This document shows, one piece after another, positions 39,104 to 42,109 of a stretch of 52,808 nt of DNA. The position numbers were made by a program, and so were the translations under genes. Each line of letters opens with the position of its first letter. Positions within the stretch are counted from its first letter, which is position 1. The notes beneath the pieces were generated by a model. It had not been told where the DNA came from. It ran no database searches and saw only the letters and a program-made list of their open reading frames with translations. Source of the DNA: an uncultured Acidobacteriota bacterium (GTDB lineage: Bacteria; Acidobacteriota; Vicinamibacteria; Fen-336); the NCBI GenBank assembly GCA_964568755.1, contig CAZMRX010000001.1:1-52808 (forward strand), given 5' to 3'.

Positions 39104-40028
39104 CGCCGCGCGCCTCGCGCCGCTTGCGGCGCTCCTCGGGCTTGGCGAGCGTGACCTTGAGCTCGACCGGCCGGCCGTCGCGCTGGACCGTGATCGCGAC
39201 CTCGCTGCCCCCGTCGGCCTCCGACAAGGCGTCGCGCAGGTCGTCGCCGTCCGCGATCGCGTCGTCCTTCAGCTTCAGGATCACGTCGCCGGCCTTCATG
39301 CCCGCCCTCGCGGCAGGTCCGTCGGCGTCGACCGACGTCACGAGCACTCCCGACTTGCCGGAGAGCTTGAAGTAGCCCGCGAGCTGCTCGCCGAGCTCCA
39401 TGTACTCGACGCCCAGCTTGCGCGGTCCGCCGCTCAGCATCGTGAACGCGAAGTCGCGCCCGTCGTCGCCCCGGAAGCTCCACGCCATCGGGGCGCGGGG
39501 CGCCATCGGCGGCAGCGGCGGGTGAGGAGCCGCGGGCGGATGCGGCGCAGCCATCTCCCACTCCGGCATCTCGAAGGTGAAGTCGTGCGGCCCCTCGCCG
39601 CGCAGCACCCGCATTCCCGTGCCGCCCTCGGCGAGAGTCGCGGTCAGCTTCTGCGTGGCTCCGCCGCGCGCGACCTCGATGGCGACGGCGCGGCCCGCGG
39701 GCGTCTCGGCCACGAGGCGCGTGAGCTGGCTGGCGCTGCGCACCGCCTCGCCGTCGAAGCGGACGATGACGTCGCCTTCCTGGATGCCGGCCTTGGCGGC
39801 CGCGCTCTCCTTCGCCACCGAGCGGACGCTGGCGCCGCGGGGCTCGCCCGTGGTGTCGCCGATCGTGACGCCGAGGCGCCCGCCGCCCGTGTGGCGTACG
39901 ACGACACGCTTCTCGACCTTCGGGTCCTCGTCGTCCGTGCCGAAGGCGCGCACGTGCCCCGGCCCGAGACAGAGGGATGCGACGAGAGCCCCGGCCACGC
40001 CCGTGGCGAGGGCGATCCTACCGTTCAT
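39093..40028 (-). CDS. Secreted protein with two PDZ domains
   Basis: 311 aa with a signal peptide. It has two PDZ-like blocks (GASVRSVAKESAAAKAGIQEGDVIVRFDGEAVRS... and GVLVTSVDADGPAARAGMKAGDVILKLKDDAI...). AGGAGG SD is present. Confidence 0.75.
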   Translation of the reverse strand: MNGRIALATGVAGALVASLCLGPGHVRAFGTDDEDPKVEKRVVVRHTGGGRLGVTIGDTTGEPRGASVRSVAKESAAAKAGIQEGDVIVRFDGEAVRSASQLTRLVAETPAGRAVAIEVARGGATQKLTATLAEGGTGMRVLRGEGPHDFTFEMPEWEMAAPHPPAAPHPPLPPMAPRAPMAWSFRGDDGRDFAFTMLSGGPRKLGVEYMELGEQLAGYFKLSGKSGVLVTSVDADGPAARAGMKAGDVILKLKDDAIADGDDLRDALSEADGGSEVAITVQRDGRPVELKVTLAKPEERRKRREARGVSL

Positions 40029-40102
40029 GGAACCTCCTCTTATTGCCCCGTCCTCGACCCTTCAGACGCGGGCCCGGACGGGAAAGTCGGTTCCCGGGAG
40101 AC

Positions 40103-40462
40103 TCAGTGCTGGTGGCCGCCCGAGCCTTCGCCCTCGGCCGTCTGGAACGAGTGGCCGCAGCCGCAGGTGGACTTGGCGTTCGGATTCTTGATCGCGAACC
40201 CCCCGCCCATCAGGTCTTCCTTGTAGTCGACCTCGGCTCCCTCGAGGTGCCGGAGGCTCATCGGGTCCACGATCACCTTGACCCCTTCGGCCTCGATCAC
40301 CTGGTCGTCTTCCGCGACCTCGTCGAGCACCATCCCGTACTGGAAGCCGGAGCAACCGCCTCCCTGCACGTAGATGCGGAGCCCGCCCTGCGGAAGGCTC
40401 TCCTTCTCCTGCTCCAGGATCCCCTTCACCTTGGCGGCTGCCGTGGCGGTCAACGTGATCAT
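40103..40462 (-). CDS. erpA: Iron-sulfur cluster insertion protein (A-type carrier, ErpA/IscA/HesB family)
   Basis: 119 aa from ATG 40462. Contains [16 protein letters not shown]...[11 protein letters not shown]...STCGCGHSF plus a short Gly/His tail. Confidence 0.9.
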
Positions 40463-40487
40463 GCCCTTCGACTCCCTTGAATACCTC

Positions 40488-40516
40488 ATCGTAGTTCATC
40501 TGAACTGTTTTGTGAA
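40488..40516 (-). promoter_or_regulatory. Candidate erpA promoter (TTCACA-17-TACGAT) with a 14-bp palindrome in the spacer
   Basis: The minus strand reads TTCACA aaacAGTTCAgaTGAACT ACGAT. The -35 is at 40511-40516 and the -10 at 40488-40493. The perfect inverted repeat AGTTCA-N2-TGAACT spans 40493-40506. This is the only AT-rich patch of the region. Confidence 0.4.
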
Positions 40517-40520
40517 GTAT

Positions 40521-40557
40521 CACCCCGGGGGGCCAGGGGGGGCGGGATGCCCCCCCT
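40521..40557. repeat. G/C-run hairpin module, inverted copy of the 40711-40890 repeat head
   Basis: CACCCCGGGGGGCCAGGGGGGGCGGGATGCCCCCCCT. G7 (40536-42) can pair with C7 (40550-56). The reverse complement aligns with the head of the right-hand units (GGGGGGGC-CCGCCCCCCC-GGCCCCCC-GGGG). Confidence 0.75.
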
Positions 40558-40565
40558 CTAGCAAG

Positions 40566-40656
40566 TGTTCGTTGTCCTTTGTCCTTTGTCCTTTGTCCTT
40601 TGTCCTTTGTTCGTTGTCCGTTGTTCGTTGCCCGTTGTCCGTTGTTCGTTGCCCGT
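40566..40656. repeat. Array of 13 phased heptamers TGT(C/T)C(T/G)T
   Basis: Units in order: tgttcgt, (tgtcctt)x5, tgttcgt, then (tgtccgt tgttcgt tgcccgt)x2 as an exact 21-bp duplication. There is no phase break over 91 bp. The minus strand reads (AAGGACA)5 and ACGGACA x2. Confidence 0.95.
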
Positions 40657-40710
40657 TGACTCTCCAATCGCGGCTCTCGAAGGTGCACGAGGAGACCAGC
40701 TTTCTCTTAG

Positions 40711-40890
40711 CCGGGGGGGCGCCGCCCCCCCCGGACCCCCTGGGTTGTTGTCGTCGGTTGGCTTGTGCGCCCTCTTGGCAGGGGCGCCGCCCCCCGGACC
40801 CCCTGGGTTGTTGTCGTCGGATGGCCTGTTCGCCCTCTTGGCCGAGGGCGCCGCCCCCCCGGCCCCCCCTGGGGTTGTCGTGCCCCGAGG
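40711..40890 (+). repeat. Tandem repeat, about 63-65 bp unit, about 2.7 copies (G/C-run hairpin plus TG-rich tail)
   Basis: Unit: G-run CGCCG C-run GG(A/C)C5-7 T GGG(G) TTGTTGTCGTCGG(T/A)TGGC(T/C)TGT(G/T)CGCCCTCTTGGC. Units start near 40711, 40777 and 40845, and the third is truncated and diverged. Each head forms a 7-9 bp G:C hairpin. Confidence 0.85.
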
Positions 40891-40921
40891 CATAATGCCG
40901 TCGCCCCTCGGGAGCCTCTGG

Positions 40922-42109
40922 ATGACTTTCCCCCTCGATCTCACCCCTGAAGCCCTCGTGGAGCGCCTCGATCAATCCGGGTTGCGCGGGCGCGGCGGCG
41001 GCTGGTTTCCCGCGGCGCGAAAGTGGAAGGCCGTGCGCGCCGAGGGCGGCCGGCCGATGGTCATCGCGAACGGCGCCGAGGGCGAGCCGGGCTCGTTCAA
41101 GGACCGCTTCGTGATGCGGCGCCGGCCGGACGACGTCGTCCTTGGGCTGAGGCTCGCGGCTCGGGCCGTGGGTGCGAGCGACGCGGTCGTCTTCCTCAAG
41201 GCCTCGTTCGACGCGCCGGCGCGGGCGATCGAGAAGGCGCTCGCCGGCGCCGCGCTCGACGGCCTGCGCGTCGAGATCCGCCGTGGCGACGACGGCTACA
41301 TCACGGGCGAGGAGACGGCGCTCATCGAGTCGCTCGAGGGCCGCAAGCCCTGGCCGCGGCCGAAACCTCCGCTGCCGTTCGCCGTCGGCTTCGAGGGACG
41401 TCCGACGCTCGTCCAGAACGTCGAGACGCTCGCCCGGGTCGGCGACGCCATCGCCGAGCCCGCGGGTTTCCGCGCCGAGGAGTCCACGCTGCTCACGCTC
41501 TGGGGCGACGTGCGCAAGCCGGGCGTGCGCGAGGTGCGGCTCGGCACGCCGATCGGCGCGGTGATCGACGAGCACGCCGGGGGCGCGACGGACGAGATCG
41601 GGCTCGTGTTTCCCGCCGGGCCGGGCGCAGCTCCGCTGCTGCCGGAGCACCTCGACACCCCGCTCGATCCGGACGCGCTCCGCACGAAGGGCTCGGCGCT
41701 CGGGACCGGCGCCCTGCTGGTGGTCTCCGCCAGGGCTTGCCCGCTGGCCGCGGCGGTCTCGGTGGCGTCCTTCTACGAGCGTGAGAGCTGCGGGCAGTGC
41801 CCGCCGTGCGCCGTGGGCGCCGCGAGCCTCGCCCGCATCCTGCGTGGGCTGGAGTCGGGCGGCTCGCGTCCGAGAGACCTGCGCGACCTGCGCGACGTGG
41901 CCGGCTTCATGTCGGGCCACGGCTACTGCGCCCACTGCCGTGGCGCCGCTTCGCTCGCGACCGGGATGGTGAGCCGTCTCGCCGCGGCGGTCGAGGCGCA
42001 CGCCAACGGCGGCTGCCCGTGGCCCGGGCGGAGCCATCCCGACCCGTTCGGCCCCGGCTCGAGCGAGCGCGGCGCGCTCGAGCGTGCCGTGGAGGAGCAA
42101 CTCCGGTGA
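40922..42109 (+). CDS. NuoF-like NADH-binding FMN / 4Fe-4S flavoprotein (complex I 51-kDa subunit family), stand-alone
   Basis: ATG 40922 has GGGAG 7 nt upstream. An alternative ATG lies at 40895. Motifs: SGLRGRGGGWFPAARKW, NGAEGEPGSFKDR, YITGEETALIESLEG and the Fe-S motif ESCGQCPPCAVG...C. No nuoE or nuoG neighbours. Confidence 0.7.
   Translation: MTFPLDLTPEALVERLDQSGLRGRGGGWFPAARKWKAVRAEGGRPMVIANGAEGEPGSFKDRFVMRRRPDDVVLGLRLAARAVGASDAVVFLKASFDAPARAIEKALAGAALDGLRVEIRRGDDGYITGEETALIESLEGRKPWPRPKPPLPFAVGFEGRPTLVQNVETLARVGDAIAEPAGFRAEESTLLTLWGDVRKPGVREVRLGTPIGAVIDEHAGGATDEIGLVFPAGPGAAPLLPEHLDTPLDPDALRTKGSALGTGALLVVSARACPLAAAVSVASFYERESCGQCPPCAVGAASLARILRGLESGGSRPRDLRDLRDVAGFMSGHGYCAHCRGAASLATGMVSRLAAAVEAHANGGCPWPGRSHPDPFGPGSSERGALERAVEEQLR

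What the first reader, a model, noticed from the sequence alone, without database searches (positions are those of the whole stretch)
40566..40656. Phase-perfect array of 13 heptamers in an intergenic region; the minus strand displays seven A(N)GGA motifs
91 bp consist solely of TGTNCNT units. Five are identical TGTCCTT copies, followed by an exact 21-bp (3-unit) duplication. A 7-bp period cannot be coding and is very unusual for a GC-rich chromosome. Read on the minus strand, the same direction as erpA, it is (AAGGACA)5 followed by interspersed ACGAACA, ACGGACA and ACGGGCA units. That gives seven closely spaced A(N)GGA motifs, the core recognised by CsrA/RsmA-family RNA-binding proteins in sponge RNAs. 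Three alternatives are also possible. The 21-bp (two helical turns) super-period may suggest an iteron-like protein-binding array. The tract may be a slippage-prone repeat altering the spacing between divergent promoters. Or it may be a U/G-rich plus-strand RNA element in front of the NuoF-like gene.
Basis: seen in the sequence. Interest (0 to 1): 0.6.

Follow-up and report, generated by a model that had tools for sequence, protein, structure and literature searches.

The report
Dispersed heptamer tract, not CsrA sponge
The 13-unit heptamer array is real, but it is one locally expanded copy of a genus-wide family of adenine-free repeat tracts that normally trail hairpins at gene ends in these soil Vicinamibacteria; here it sits inside a repeat insertion between two promoters and is not a CsrA-binding RNA.

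Summary
The array (40566-40656; 13 in-phase heptamers, 0 expected by chance) is confirmed. It is not unique. G000 has 78 long A-free, T-rich intergenic tracts, and 55 of 282 intergenic tandem arrays have period 7/14/21, mostly with YCGT-core units.

At this locus the array is the spacer of a ~365-bp mosaic insertion. The order is a REP-like G-run/C-run hairpin, the heptamers, then a 90-nt dispersed module ending in the inverted hairpin, whose 3' part is repeated 2.6 times. The insertion lies between the conserved erpA promoter/operator and the conserved -10 box of the NuoF-like gene. Only a small subclade has it, and the tract differs in every lineage, so the phase-perfect run is recent.

CsrA was found in none of 41 genomes of the order, so the sponge reading fails.

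As a class, these tracts follow U-tract-less hairpins just after stop codons, on the sense strand. They are structure-free, U>G, C>G and YC-rich. That fits the known "protective stem-loop plus downstream Rho-loading region" layout, but this is inferred, not tested. The C1 copy is an orphan: it is the only module in a divergent spacer.

It belongs to the known but unexplained class of intergenic heptameric repeats, which this scan has already noted in other Vicinamibacteria.

The parts
40103..40462 (-). erpA-type A-type Fe-S carrier gene (context; left neighbour)
   Evidence: ORF. Pfam PF01521 at E 1.2e-21. Divergent pairing with the NuoF-like gene is conserved in 19 relatives.
40488..40516 (-). 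erpA promoter-like site (-35 TTCACA, 17-nt spacer, -10 TACGAT) enclosing the 14-bp palindrome AGTTCATCTGAACT (40493-40506). This is the left boundary of the insertion.
   Evidence: It is the only promoter-like site in 40000-41100. The block ...CATC(C/G)TAG(A/T)(C/T)CATCTG(G/A)ACT.TTTTGTGAAGT is conserved across the genus.
40522..40561 (+). Left hairpin (HP1): CCCCGGGGGG-CCA-GGGGGGG-CGGGATG-CCCCCCC-TCTAG. It belongs to a REP-like G-run/C-run hairpin family.
   Evidence: RNA MFE is -25.7 kcal/mol. The 19-mer core has 19 exact copies in G000, 13 in G003, 0-7 in other species of the genus and none in the reversed control. G000 has 204 intergenic G5+/C5+ hairpins.
40566..40656 (+). The heptamer array: 13 units, with no A on the plus strand. 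It includes (TGTCCTT)5 at 40573-40607 and an exact 21-bp duplication at 40615-40635 / 40636-40656.
   Evidence: It is structure-free as RNA: MFE -0.2 kcal/mol on the plus strand and -2.6 on the minus strand.
40658..40747 (+). A divergent copy of a ~90-nt dispersed module (consensus GRCTCTYCAAGGGGGATC-stem-GCCTGCGTTCYTGTTCT-G7-loop-C7-AGRCCCCCCGGGTTG).
   Evidence: nhmmer E 2.5e-11, one of 47 copies. Covariance model score 63.6 bits, E 1.4e-12. No Rfam family matches.
40711..40745 (+). Right hairpin (HP2), an inverted counterpart of HP1: CCGGGGGGG-CGCCG-CCCCCCCCGG-ACCCCCTGGG.
   Evidence: Inverted repeat 40522-40554 / 40713-40745: 33 nt, 79% complementary, 158 nt apart.
40716..40881 (+). 63-bp tandem repeat, 2.6 copies. 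It re-duplicates HP2 and its GT-rich tail (GGGTTGTTGTCGTCGG...).
   Evidence: TRF score 249. Families D2 and D3. Absent from the G003 and L050 versions of the insertion.
40891..40896 (+). Conserved -10-like box (CATAAT; TATAAT in most relatives) of the NuoF-like gene. This is the right boundary of the insertion.
   Evidence: Conserved 25-35 nt before the start codon in most of the 19 relatives. That it acts as a promoter is inferred, not shown.
40922..42109 (+). NuoF-like flavoprotein gene (context; right neighbour)
   Evidence: Pfam PF01512 (E 2.5e-39) and PF10589 (E 4.1e-18).

Best explanation
WHAT IT IS (shown). The array is one locally expanded member of a genus-specific class of adenine-free, structure-free tandem tracts built from YCGT-core heptamers (TGTCCGT, TGTTCGT and relatives).

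At this locus it forms the variable spacer of a ~365-bp mosaic repeat, about 40521-40885. The order is a REP-like G-run/C-run hairpin, the heptamer tract, then a 90-nt dispersed module ending in the inverted hairpin, with the module's 3' part tandemly repeated 2.6 times. This mosaic is an insertion between the erpA promoter/operator and the -10 box of the NuoF-like gene. It is present only in a small subclade. The tract differs in every lineage that has it.

HOW IT AROSE (inferred). Replication slippage and local tandem duplication produced the (TGTCCTT)5 run, the 21-bp duplication and the 63-bp repeats.

WHAT THE CLASS DOES (inferred, not tested). Genome-wide, such tracts follow a stable hairpin that lacks a U-tract and starts about 9-20 nt after a stop codon, and they lie on the sense strand. 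They are U>G, C>G, YC-rich and unable to fold. This is the layout described for Rho-dependent 3' ends in E. coli, where a protective stem-loop is followed immediately downstream by the Rho-loading (rut) region. I therefore read hairpin plus tract as a 3'-end-formation cassette. The tract offers unstructured pyrimidine-rich RNA in a 72% GC genome, and the 7-nt period reflects slippage, not a binding register.

THIS COPY (inferred). It is an orphan cassette in a divergent spacer with no co-oriented gene upstream. Most likely it has no specific role in erpA or NuoF-like regulation, beyond pushing the two promoters apart and perhaps insulating the NuoF-like promoter from upstream transcription.
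For: Insertion status. The erpA/NuoF-like divergent pair is conserved in 19 relatives. Only the erpA promoter block and the TATAAT box are conserved in the spacer, which is 99-219 bp in most relatives, 314 bp in G003 and 459 bp here. The mosaic occurs at this site only in G000, G003/L051, L050 and (hairpin only, interrupted by an IS) L052/L053, with a short remnant in G001.

Turnover. The tract at this same site is a degenerate 13-nt-period sequence in G003 and about 12 different heptamers in L050. Neither has the (TGTCCTT)5 run, the 21-bp duplication or the 63-bp repeat.

Family. There are 78 intergenic A-free tracts of at least 60 nt. 55 of 282 intergenic tandem arrays have period 7, 14 or 21. 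(TGTYCKT)3 occurs in 8 of 17 genomes of the genus and in 0 of 24 outside it, with 0 hits for the reversed control.

Gene-end association. The upstream gene is co-oriented for 53 of 68 long tracts. In tandem gene pairs the tract is sense 29 times and antisense 7 times. Only 5 of 78 lie in divergent spacers, which hold 33% of intergenic bp. With a post-stop hairpin, 73 of 293 regions have a sense tract against 11 antisense. Without a hairpin the numbers are 102 and 123 of 1172 (odds ratio 3.5, p 1.5e-12). The tract lies after the hairpin in 66 cases and before it in 0. Other species of the genus show [stop codon][locus-specific hairpin][4-18 nt][(TGTCCGT)3-9]. Orthologous junctions keep the hairpin plus an A-poor tandem tract while both sequences change.

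Rut-like properties. Long tracts are A 2%, C 35%, G 24%, T 39%. YC dinucleotides are at 0.29 against 0.17 in all intergenic DNA. MFE is -0.125 kcal/mol per nt against -0.376 for random intergenic windows. The array itself folds at -0.2 kcal/mol over 91 nt. Only 22 of 293 post-stop hairpins have a U-tract, yet T>A and C>G skews persist for at least 80 nt after hairpins and are absent without a hairpin. Rho is encoded. Literature: Rho-dependent 3' ends sit at U-less stem-loops with rut and a C>G bias just downstream (PMC6061677); rut sites are U- and YC-rich, G-poor and unstructured (PMC9499579).

Mosaic. 47-49 module copies in G000, 46 of 47 intergenic, co-oriented with the upstream gene 32 to 7. 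Exactly one lies in a divergent spacer, and that is this one. 15 of 47 have an opposite-polarity hairpin 55-167 nt upstream. Module copy number ranges from 1 to 72 among species of the genus.
Against: The C1 array itself has C about equal to G (25% vs 23%), so it is U-rich and not C-rich. It also has no co-oriented gene upstream, so the class-level function cannot apply here in the usual way.

E. coli Rho holds about 10 nt of RNA per protomer (bioRxiv 10.1101/2022.08.29.505764), so the 7-nt period is not explained by Rho geometry.

The recurrence of the same unit (TGTCCGT) at unrelated loci and in several species is not predicted by a purely compositional requirement. It hints at a sequence-specific binder, at spread by mobility, or at gene conversion.

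Tracts were not preferentially found after hairpins that lack a U-tract (7 of 22 against 56 of 271, not significant).

The gene calls are my own crude GC3/codon-based calls. The genome is a 717-contig MAG, and contig ends are enriched in these repeats.
Confidence: 0.55

Rival explanations
1. Purely selfish or neutral DNA. The hairpins and the module are non-autonomous mobile repeats (REPIN/MITE/BIME-like) and the heptamer tract is a microsatellite that hitch-hikes and grows by slippage. On this view the tracts have no function. The bias toward gene ends and the sense strand only reflects where, and in which orientation, insertions are tolerated.
For: Copy numbers vary widely between species of one genus: the module from 1 to 72 and the HP1 core from 0 to 19. 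HP1 and HP2 form a 33-nt inverted repeat around the array. The erpA/NuoF-like spacer is filled in some lineages and empty in others. An IS sits inside the hairpin in L052/L053, and REPs are known IS targets (PMC1525189, seen by title only). Sequence turns over rapidly. Heptameric SSRs elsewhere have no known function, and polymerase slippage is the proposed cause (PMC4692102).
Against: No Y1/RAYT transposase was found, and no target-site duplication could be defined. In other species the tracts follow locus-specific hairpins that are not repeat copies, so they are not simply part of one mobile unit. Hairpin plus A-poor tract persists at orthologous junctions while the sequence changes. The strict order (hairpin first, then a sense-strand tract) and the extreme avoidance of structure go beyond what tolerance alone predicts.
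Confidence: 0.28
2. The heptamers are sites for an unknown sequence-specific binder of RNA or single-stranded DNA that reads YCGU every 7 nt. This would resemble other proteins that read short motifs at fixed spacing on unstructured RNA.
For: The same unit, TGTCCGT, recurs at unrelated loci in at least 8 species of the genus and nowhere outside it. CGT, CCGT and TCGT are enriched 4- to 7-fold in tracts. The strict lack of structure would keep such sites accessible.
Against: No candidate protein is known. Units are diverse across tracts (CCGCCTCCTTCCTT, CCGTCCGTCTCGTC, GTTGTCT and others), and they change at orthologous sites. That argues for constraint on composition and not on sequence. Hfq and CsrA were not found.
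Confidence: 0.08
3. The tract is the extended, degenerate U-rich tail of a non-canonical intrinsic (Rho-independent) terminator typical of very GC-rich bacteria.
For: A hairpin followed by T-rich sequence on the sense strand after stop codons. The template would give weak rU:dA-rich hybrids.
Against: The tract usually starts 4-18 nt after the stem. T is only 26% in the first 4 nt after hairpins. Tracts are 40-185 nt long, far beyond a U-tract. The terminator scan of the locus finds only 2 weak sites, with 1.4 expected by chance.
Confidence: 0.06
4. A CsrA/RsmA-type sponge RNA transcribed from the minus strand.
For: Seven A(N)GGA motifs on the minus strand.
Against: CsrA was found in 0 of 41 genomes of the order, with positive controls detected. 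The motifs lie in unstructured sequence and not in hairpin loops. No Rfam match. The array lies upstream of the erpA -35 element. The five AAGGACA units are unique to this genome.
Confidence: 0.01
5. A DNA-level regulatory array for the divergent promoters: either iteron-like protein-binding sites with a 21-bp super-period, or a contingency (phase-variable) repeat that tunes promoter spacing.
For: It lies between two divergent promoters. Its length differs between lineages. There is an exact 21-bp duplication.
Against: The array lies outside both core promoters, starting 50 bp beyond the erpA -35 and ending 235 bp before the NuoF-like -10. The 21-bp repeat is a single local event that relatives do not share. 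No replication or initiator genes are nearby. The same tracts occur at about 80 other sites, mostly at gene ends. Most relatives lack any insertion here.
Confidence: 0.03

Closest known systems
Intergenic heptameric simple-sequence repeats of Xanthomonas (GGGAATC) and Nostoc PCC 7120 (GGGGAYT), Rehm et al. 2015 (PMC4692102)
   Same: The unit is 7 nt. There are up to hundreds of dispersed, mostly intergenic arrays. [quoted passage not shown] Length and sequence vary extensively between close relatives at the same gene junction. Function is unknown, and polymerase slippage has been proposed to explain the 7-nt preference.
   Different: Those units are G-rich, form G-quadruplexes and, in Xanthomonas, are often arranged as convergent inverted pairs. 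Here the units are A-free with isolated G's, so they cannot form G4 or hairpins. They are unpaired (3 of 234 have an opposite-polarity partner), and a separate hairpin precedes them.
Multicopy tandem 7-9-nt sites of Geobacter metallireducens (GTTGCTYN, TCTCCGTS, MTYCTGA), Aklujkar et al. 2009 (PMC2700814)
   Same: Short T-rich, A-poor units very like those here (GTTGTCC, TCTCCGT). They are multicopy and of unknown function.
   Different: Those have only 3-5 units, mostly as pairs on opposite strands, and were guessed to be binding sites for global regulators. Here the arrays are longer, single, and linked to gene ends.
REP / BIME / REPIN elements of Proteobacteria (PMC3116915, PMC3337134, PMC3733652, PMC2817692)
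   Same: Families of short, highly repeated intergenic palindromes at gene 3' ends. They occur in both orientations and as inverted doublets around a spacer, in mosaics with linker motifs. Copy number varies strongly between relatives. They are used as IS targets and are linked to mRNA 3'-end protection and Rho-dependent termination.
   Different: No GTAG or CGTC tag is evident and no RAYT/Y1 transposase was found. The stems are G-run/C-run. The spacer is a variable heptamer array of 55-167 nt plus a 90-nt module.
Rho-dependent 3' ends: protective stem-loop without a U-tract, followed by the rut region (Dar & Sorek 2018, PMC6061677; rut features from H-SELEX, PMC9499579)
   Same: The same order of parts (stop codon, stable hairpin without a U-tract, then a C>G, U-rich, YC-rich, unstructured region at least 60 nt long). 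Rho is encoded in the genome.
   Different: Known rut sites are not tandem repeats and have no 7-nt period (Rho holds about 10 nt per protomer). Nothing has been tested here. The C1 copy has no upstream co-oriented gene.
   Same: A modular dispersed intergenic repeat whose middle part is a variable number of tandem units between two conserved end modules.
   Different: The sequences are unrelated. The boxB unit is about 45 bp, not 7.
CsrB/RsmZ-type sponge RNAs
   Same: Repeated A(N)GGA motifs on one strand.
   Different: The lineage has no CsrA. The motifs are not in hairpin loops. There is no evidence for its own promoter or terminator. The motifs are specific to this one genome.

Membership tests
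CsrA/RsmA sponge RNA | The cognate CsrA/RsmA protein is encoded by the organism | tested here: not met
   PF02599 has no match in G000 (90% complete) or in any of 41 genomes of the order, 16 of them high quality. E. coli, B. subtilis and Thermotoga controls were detected.
CsrA/RsmA sponge RNA | GGA motifs presented in hairpin loops of a structured sRNA | tested here: not met
   The minus-strand RNA folds at only -2.6 kcal/mol over 91 nt (z -0.29), and its centroid structure is fully unpaired.
CsrA/RsmA sponge RNA | Match to a curated sponge RNA family | tested here: not met
   Rfam 15 at E<=10 gives nothing relevant in 39900-41300.
CsrA/RsmA sponge RNA | Transcribed as a discrete sRNA | not testable with these tools
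Intergenic heptameric SSR class (Xanthomonas/Nostoc type) | Tandem 7-nt units over-represented in intergenic DNA and dispersed over the genome | tested here: met
   55 of 282 intergenic arrays have period 7, 14 or 21. For pure period 7 there are 11 intergenic against 5 genic arrays, although 91.5% of the genome is coding.
Intergenic heptameric SSR class (Xanthomonas/Nostoc type) | Located close to the stop codon of the upstream gene, on its coding strand | tested here: met
   Met for the family. Not met for the C1 copy, which lies in a divergent spacer.
Intergenic heptameric SSR class (Xanthomonas/Nostoc type) | Length and sequence vary between close relatives at the same junction | tested here: met
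Intergenic heptameric SSR class (Xanthomonas/Nostoc type) | G-rich, G4-forming unit, often in convergent inverted pairs | tested here: not met
   The units have no GG on the T-rich strand. Only 3 of 234 tracts have an opposite-polarity partner within 300 nt.
REP/BIME/REPIN | Short palindromes repeated many times in intergenic regions, in both orientations | tested here: met
   264 G5+..C5+ hairpins against 82 for the C..G control. 204 are intergenic. Loop families occur in both orientations.
REP/BIME/REPIN | Inverted doublets around a spacer | tested here: met
   A 33-nt inverted repeat, 79% complementary, brackets the array. 15 of 47 modules have an upstream hairpin of opposite polarity.
REP/BIME/REPIN | Cognate RAYT (Y1 transposase) in the genome | tested here: not met
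   PF01797 has no match in G000, with controls detected in 6 genomes. The MAG is 90% complete, so absence is not proven.
REP/BIME/REPIN | Conserved GTAG or CGTC tag at one end | tested here: inconclusive
   Many copies have CTAG or TCTAG next to the stem, but I did not establish a consistent tag.
Rho-dependent terminator region (rut) | Rho encoded in the genome | tested here: met
   PF07497 match above the cut-off in a 436-aa ORF on C31.
Rho-dependent terminator region (rut) | At least 60 nt of unstructured, U/YC-rich, G-poor RNA with C>G | tested here: met
   Family: C 35% against G 24%, T 39%, YC 0.29 against 0.17, MFE -0.125 against -0.376 kcal/mol per nt. The C1 array itself is only partly compliant: C 25% is about equal to G 23%, T is 50%, and MFE is -0.2 kcal/mol.
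Rho-dependent terminator region (rut) | Lies downstream of a transcribed gene and just after a stem-loop without a U-tract | tested here: not met
   Met for the family. The C1 copy has no co-oriented upstream gene.
Rho-dependent terminator region (rut) | Termination depends on Rho (bicyclomycin, in vitro assays) | not testable with these tools
   No expression or biochemical data are available, and the lineage is uncultured.
Intrinsic terminator | GC-rich hairpin followed directly by a 7-8-nt U-tract | tested here: not met
   HP1 is followed by TCTAGCAAG. Genome-wide, T is 26% in the first 4 nt after hairpins, and only 22 of 293 hairpins have at least 5 T in the first 8 nt.
Iterons | Conserved 17-22-bp direct repeats next to a replication initiator gene or origin | tested here: not met
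   The 21-bp unit is one local duplication that is absent in G003 and L050. The neighbours are housekeeping genes.
Contingency (phase-variable) SSR | Repeat inside a coding frame or between the -35 and -10 elements of a promoter | tested here: not met
   The array lies outside the predicted erpA promoter (40488-40516) and 235 bp upstream of the NuoF-like -10 box.

The most novel reading that the evidence does not exclude
In this Vicinamibacteria genus, 3'-end formation is served by portable two-part cassettes: a protective stem-loop followed by a tandem-heptamer, adenine-free, structure-proof Rho-loading tract. These cassettes can be copied around the genome as part of REP-like mosaics. If so, this would give the long-unexplained class of bacterial intergenic heptameric repeats a concrete function, namely keeping RNA single-stranded for Rho (or another single-strand RNA binder) in a 72% GC genome. 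It would also show terminators spreading as mobile modules.
Probability: 0.2. Interest if true: 0.65.

Novelty: new member of a known kind. Interest (0 to 1): 0.3.

Why it matters
As a single locus it matters little. It is an orphan copy of a dispersed repeat, and the attractive CsrA-sponge reading is excluded.

The class-level pattern is more useful. In this genus, adenine-free heptamer tracts that cannot fold follow hairpins at gene ends, strictly in that order and on the sense strand, while canonical U-tract terminators are rare. Intergenic heptameric repeats have been catalogued in Xanthomonas, cyanobacteria, Geobacter and, by this scan, other Acidobacteriota, and no function has been assigned to them. 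The layout found here yields a concrete hypothesis that is cheap to test (a Rho-loading or single-strand platform behind a protective stem-loop).

It is also a practical warning for annotation. These tracts have no stop codons in any of the six frames, so they create long spurious ORFs; one example is the 514-aa ORF starting at 40565. The associated G/C hairpins also fragment assemblies.

Tried and rejected

2. Rfam. Nothing was found for the locus or for 12 better-conserved copies, only chance GC-hairpin hits far below gathering scores.

3. CsrA, Hfq and the Y1/RAYT transposase were not found.

4. The earlier-scan idea that heptamer arrays are arms of IVS-like elements carrying a PF05635 gene. 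G000 has two PF05635 genes (C191, C413), but neither has heptamer arrays or G-run hairpins within 500 nt, and tracts here are not in inverted pairs. The idea is not supported for this genome.

5. A search for the same strain in metagenomes gave only other species. The closest contig (85.6% identity) breaks inside an IS that interrupts the hairpin, so no strain-level copy-number comparison was possible.

6. Literature searches for the heptamer dimer found nothing relevant.

7. RNAalifold on MAFFT alignments of the module recovers only the terminal G/C hairpin. The internal stem's compensatory changes were read by eye and were not tested statistically.

8. Test for mutual exclusion of U-tracts and long tracts: not significant.

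9. Replication-strand explanation. Tract polarity shows no relation to local GC skew (20 against 30), but skew is a weak proxy in this MAG.

10. Rho geometry. About 10 nt per protomer in E. coli, so it does not explain the 7-nt period.

11. No target-site duplication could be defined, because the empty-site spacers of relatives are not alignable.
Full report
OBSERVATION. The array is real. TRF reports 40566-40658 with period 7, 13.3 copies and score 109. The units are TGTTCGT, (TGTCCTT)5, TGTTCGT, TGTCCGT, TGTTCGT, TGCCCGT, TGTCCGT, TGTTCGT, TGCCCGT. The last six units form an exact 21-bp duplication. A three-unit pattern matches 11 times in the window, against 0.00 expected in 100 shuffles. 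Two units are TGCCCGT and not TGTNCNT. The plus strand contains no A. The minus strand does carry seven A(N)GGA motifs.

LOCAL ANATOMY. The array lies in the 459-bp spacer between an A-type Fe-S carrier gene (erpA-like, PF01521, minus strand, ATG at 40462) and a NuoF-like gene (PF01512 + PF10589, plus strand, ATG at 40922). From left to right the spacer holds the following parts.
- The erpA promoter-like site (-35 TTCACA, -10 TACGAT, 40516-40488), enclosing a 14-bp palindrome.
- A very stable G-run/C-run hairpin, CCCCGGGGGG-CCA-G7-CGGGATG-C7, at 40522-40561 (-25.7 kcal/mol).
- The heptamer array, which is essentially structure-free as RNA on either strand (-0.2 and -2.6 kcal/mol over 91 nt).
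- A ~90-nt module at 40658-40747. It ends in a second G/C hairpin that is an inverted copy of the first (33-nt inverted repeat, 79% complementary).
- A 63-bp tandem repeat, 2.6 copies, that re-duplicates that second hairpin and its GT-rich tail.
- A CATAAT box at 40891-40896.

THE LOCUS IN RELATIVES. The divergent erpA/NuoF-like pair is conserved in 19 relatives across the order. In their spacers only two blocks are conserved: the erpA promoter/operator block and a TATAAT box 25-35 nt before the NuoF-like start codon. Everything between them is variable, and most spacers are 99-219 bp. The hairpin-tract-module mosaic is therefore an insertion between two promoters.

It is present in G000 and in its closest relative G003 (erpA 100% and NuoF-like 84% identical; also metagenome contig L051). 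It is also present in a further lineage, L050. In L052/L053 an IS interrupts the first hairpin right after ...GGGGGGCTAG. G001 keeps a short remnant. In a named sampling of species representatives (class Vicinamibacteria, all MAGs), only the G003 record has it.

The tract differs in each lineage. G003 has a degenerate sequence of about 58 nt (TTGTTCG TTGCCG ...). L050 has about 12 heptamers of a different mix. Only G000 has (TGTCCTT)5, the 21-bp duplication and the 63-bp repeats. The phase-perfect appearance is thus a recent, local expansion. Slippage or tandem duplication is the obvious cause, but that is inferred.

GENOME-WIDE FAMILY. The genome is a 5.9-Mb MAG of 717 contigs with 71.6% GC.

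Tracts. TGTYCGT-type words cluster at 29 loci. With crude gene calls of my own (5,218 genes, 91.5% coding), there are 78 intergenic tracts of at least 60 nt that are A-free and T-rich on one strand, against 29 genic ones. Genome-wide TRF gives 282 intergenic arrays, of which 55 have period 7, 14 or 21, and most of those are A-free with a YCGT core. Long tracts are strongly placed:
- The upstream neighbour is co-oriented for 53 of 68.
- In tandem gene pairs the tract is sense 29 times and antisense 7 times.
- Only 5 of 78 lie in divergent spacers, although those hold 33% of intergenic bp.

Hairpins. G5+..C5+ hairpins number 264, against 82 for the C..G control. 204 are intergenic, most start 9-20 nt after a stop codon, and only 12 lie in divergent spacers. 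They fall into a few loop families that occur in both orientations.

Module. The module has 47 (nhmmer) to 49 (covariance model) copies. 46 of 47 are intergenic, and they are co-oriented with the upstream gene 32 to 7. T-rich tracts flank 26 of 47 on the same strand, and never on the opposite strand. Exactly one copy lies in a divergent spacer, and that is the copy studied here. Fifteen modules have an opposite-polarity hairpin 55-167 nt upstream with a tract in between, so the C1 arrangement is a recurring mosaic.

Hairpin-tract order. With a post-stop hairpin, 73 of 293 downstream regions carry a sense tract against 11 antisense. Without a hairpin the counts are 102 and 123 of 1,172 (odds ratio 3.5, p 1.5e-12). 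The tract follows the hairpin in 66 cases and precedes it in 0, although the space before the hairpin was limited to 45 nt or less by my definition.

Polarity. Tract polarity follows gene direction in every GC-skew class and shows no relation to skew itself, which is a weak proxy in this MAG.

DISTRIBUTION IN THE GENUS. (TGTYCKT)3 occurs in 8 of 17 genomes of the genus and in 0 of 24 outside it, with 0 hits for the reversed control. The module is in 16 of 16 genomes of the genus, with 1 to 72 copies, and almost nowhere else. The HP1 core has 19, 13 or 0-7 copies depending on the species.

In other species the same (TGTCCGT)3-9 tract sits 4-18 nt after locus-specific perfect hairpins that directly follow stop codons. 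The tract is therefore not merely part of one mobile unit. At orthologous junctions (for example downstream of the groEL-like gene), G000 and its relatives both keep a hairpin plus an A-poor tandem tract, but with different hairpin sequences and different repeat units. Position and composition persist while the sequence turns over.

- CsrA sponge: excluded. CsrA is in 0 of 41 genomes, with controls positive. The motifs are unstructured. There is no Rfam hit. The AAGGACA units are specific to this one genome.
- Iterons: not supported. The 21-bp unit is a single local duplication.
- Slippage-prone spacer between divergent promoters: correct as a description. However, the array lies outside both core promoters, and most relatives manage without any insertion.
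- Plus-strand U/G-rich RNA: the polarity is right for the family, but the array lies 235 bp upstream of the conserved -10 box.

MECHANISM. Long tracts are A 2%, C 35%, G 24%, T 39%. YC dinucleotides are at 0.29, against 0.17 in all intergenic DNA. GG and GYG are about three-fold depleted. MFE is -0.125 kcal/mol per nt, against -0.376 for random intergenic windows and -0.41 for coding windows. An A-free sequence with isolated G's cannot form helices of three or more base pairs; this follows directly from the pairing rules.

Canonical U-tracts are rare: 22 of 293 post-stop hairpins have one. Yet T>A (21% vs 11%) and C>G (36% vs 30%) skews extend for at least 80 nt after hairpins, and they are absent where there is no hairpin. 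Rho is encoded.

In E. coli, Rho-dependent transcripts end at stable stem-loops that lack a U-tract, with the rut region and a C>G bias immediately downstream (PMC6061677). The hairpin-tract pair matches that layout.

I therefore rank "protective stem-loop plus Rho-loading tract" as the best functional model for the class, at roughly one chance in three. It remains untested. Three points count against it:
- The 7-nt period does not fit Rho's ~10 nt per protomer (bioRxiv 10.1101/2022.08.29.505764).
- The recurrence of one unit, TGTCCGT, across loci and species is not explained by a compositional requirement.
- The C1 array has C about equal to G.

The main rival is neutral or selfish repeat DNA, whose placement would reflect tolerance and not function.

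For the C1 copy, which has no co-oriented upstream gene, the simplest reading is an orphan or hitch-hiking cassette. It spaces the two promoters and may insulate the NuoF-like promoter. Three G/C hairpins in a row precede that promoter. The two terminator-like matches there are no more than chance predicts.

RELATION TO WHAT IS KNOWN. Intergenic heptameric SSRs are a described but unexplained class. Xanthomonas GGGAATC and Nostoc GGGGAYT repeats are dispersed, lie close after stop codons on the coding strand, and vary between close relatives (PMC4692102). Geobacter metallireducens has multicopy GTTGCTYN, TCTCCGTS and MTYCTGA sites (PMC2700814). Earlier notes of this scan report heptamer arrays in other Vicinamibacteria/Acidobacteriota genomes; those notes gave me these two references.

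This genus differs in three ways. The units are A-free and cannot form G4 structures. The arrays are unpaired (3 of 234 have an opposite-polarity partner). A separate hairpin precedes them. An earlier idea linking such arrays to IVS-type elements with a PF05635 gene finds no support here.

The hairpins and the mosaic resemble REP/BIME/REPIN elements, but no RAYT was found. I file the finding as a new member of a known kind.

LIMITS. The gene calls are my own. The genome is a fragmented MAG whose contig ends are enriched in these repeats (G/C hairpins in 1.9% of contig ends against 0.5% of random windows), so copy numbers are lower bounds. Relatives are not independent samples.

Noticed in passing
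window 40493-40506 (within 40488-40516): A perfect 14-bp palindrome, AGTTCA-TC-TGAACT, fills the spacer of the erpA promoter-like site. The block is conserved across the genus as TAGACCATCTGGACTA-type sequence. It is probably the operator of a repressor of the Fe-S carrier gene.
   Followed up: partly
window 40716-40881: A 63-bp tandem repeat (2.6 copies, TRF score 249) re-duplicates the right-hand G/C hairpin and its GT-rich tail. As a result, three strong hairpins precede the NuoF-like promoter. It is absent from the G003 and L050 versions of the insertion. The local repeat periods are 7, 21 and 63, all multiples of 7; this may be coincidence.
   Followed up: partly
G000 genome-wide, e.g. 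C105:7905-8100, C161:2700-2985, C165:7350-7630, C25:5900-6134 (loci L023, L024, L031, L032): A ~90-nt dispersed module has 47-49 copies in G000 and 1-72 in other species of the genus, with no Rfam match. It has an internal hairpin whose stem varies between copies while staying paired (judged by eye), with a G-rich GGGG/GGGA loop. It ends in a G7/C7 hairpin. In several loci its 5' 50-nt half is tandemly reiterated 2-4 times.
   Followed up: partly
L052 and L053 (metagenome contigs Ga0210377_10004573, Ga0184615_10024943): In a related species a foreign element of at least 2 kb (IS-like; the contig ends inside it) is inserted into the left hairpin at this same locus, directly after ...CCCCGGGGGGCTAG. 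The hairpin family seems to serve as an IS target, as REPs do.
   Followed up: no
G000 C75:13906-14090; C38:5639-5751; C115:3482-3654; C548 downstream of the first gene; C41:11664-11737: Other long A-poor tandem arrays use quite different units: a 20-nt unit CCGTCCCTTCCCTCTTGCGC, (CCGCCTCCTTCCTT)8, (CCGTCCGTCTCGTC)12.5, (CGCATCCCGTCAA)n and (TGTTGTC)10.6. The shared property is composition and strand asymmetry, not sequence.
   Followed up: partly
L033 = G016:C28:153072-153134: A perfect (TGTCCGT)9 array in another species of the genus lies 18 nt after a 13-bp perfect hairpin that directly follows a stop codon. Several such loci are followed by a second shared motif, AGCCCCGAnGAAGGCCG.
   Followed up: no
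window 40565-42109 (+) and 40520-42100 (-): Because the tracts lack A on one strand and T on the other, they contain no stop codon in any of the six frames. They therefore extend or create long spurious ORFs, for example a 514-aa ORF starting with GTG at 40565 that runs into the NuoF-like gene. This is an annotation hazard.
   Followed up: no
G000 C191:609-896 and C413:2025-2309 (L087, L088): Two paralogous PF05635 (23S rRNA IVS-protein / four-helix-bundle) genes sit in similar small gene cassettes. No heptamer arrays or G-run hairpins lie within 500 nt. One of the rare opposite-polarity tract pairs (C191:1733-1929) lies about 850 nt away.
   Followed up: partly
G000 contig ends, e.g. C114, C541, C561, C452, C450; N-gaps in C165, C93, C89, C226: Contig ends and scaffold gaps are enriched in G/C hairpins (1.9% against 0.5%) and in G6+/C6+ runs (7.3% against 4.0%). 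Very long homopolymer G or C runs flank several gaps. These repeats fragment the assembly.
   Followed up: partly
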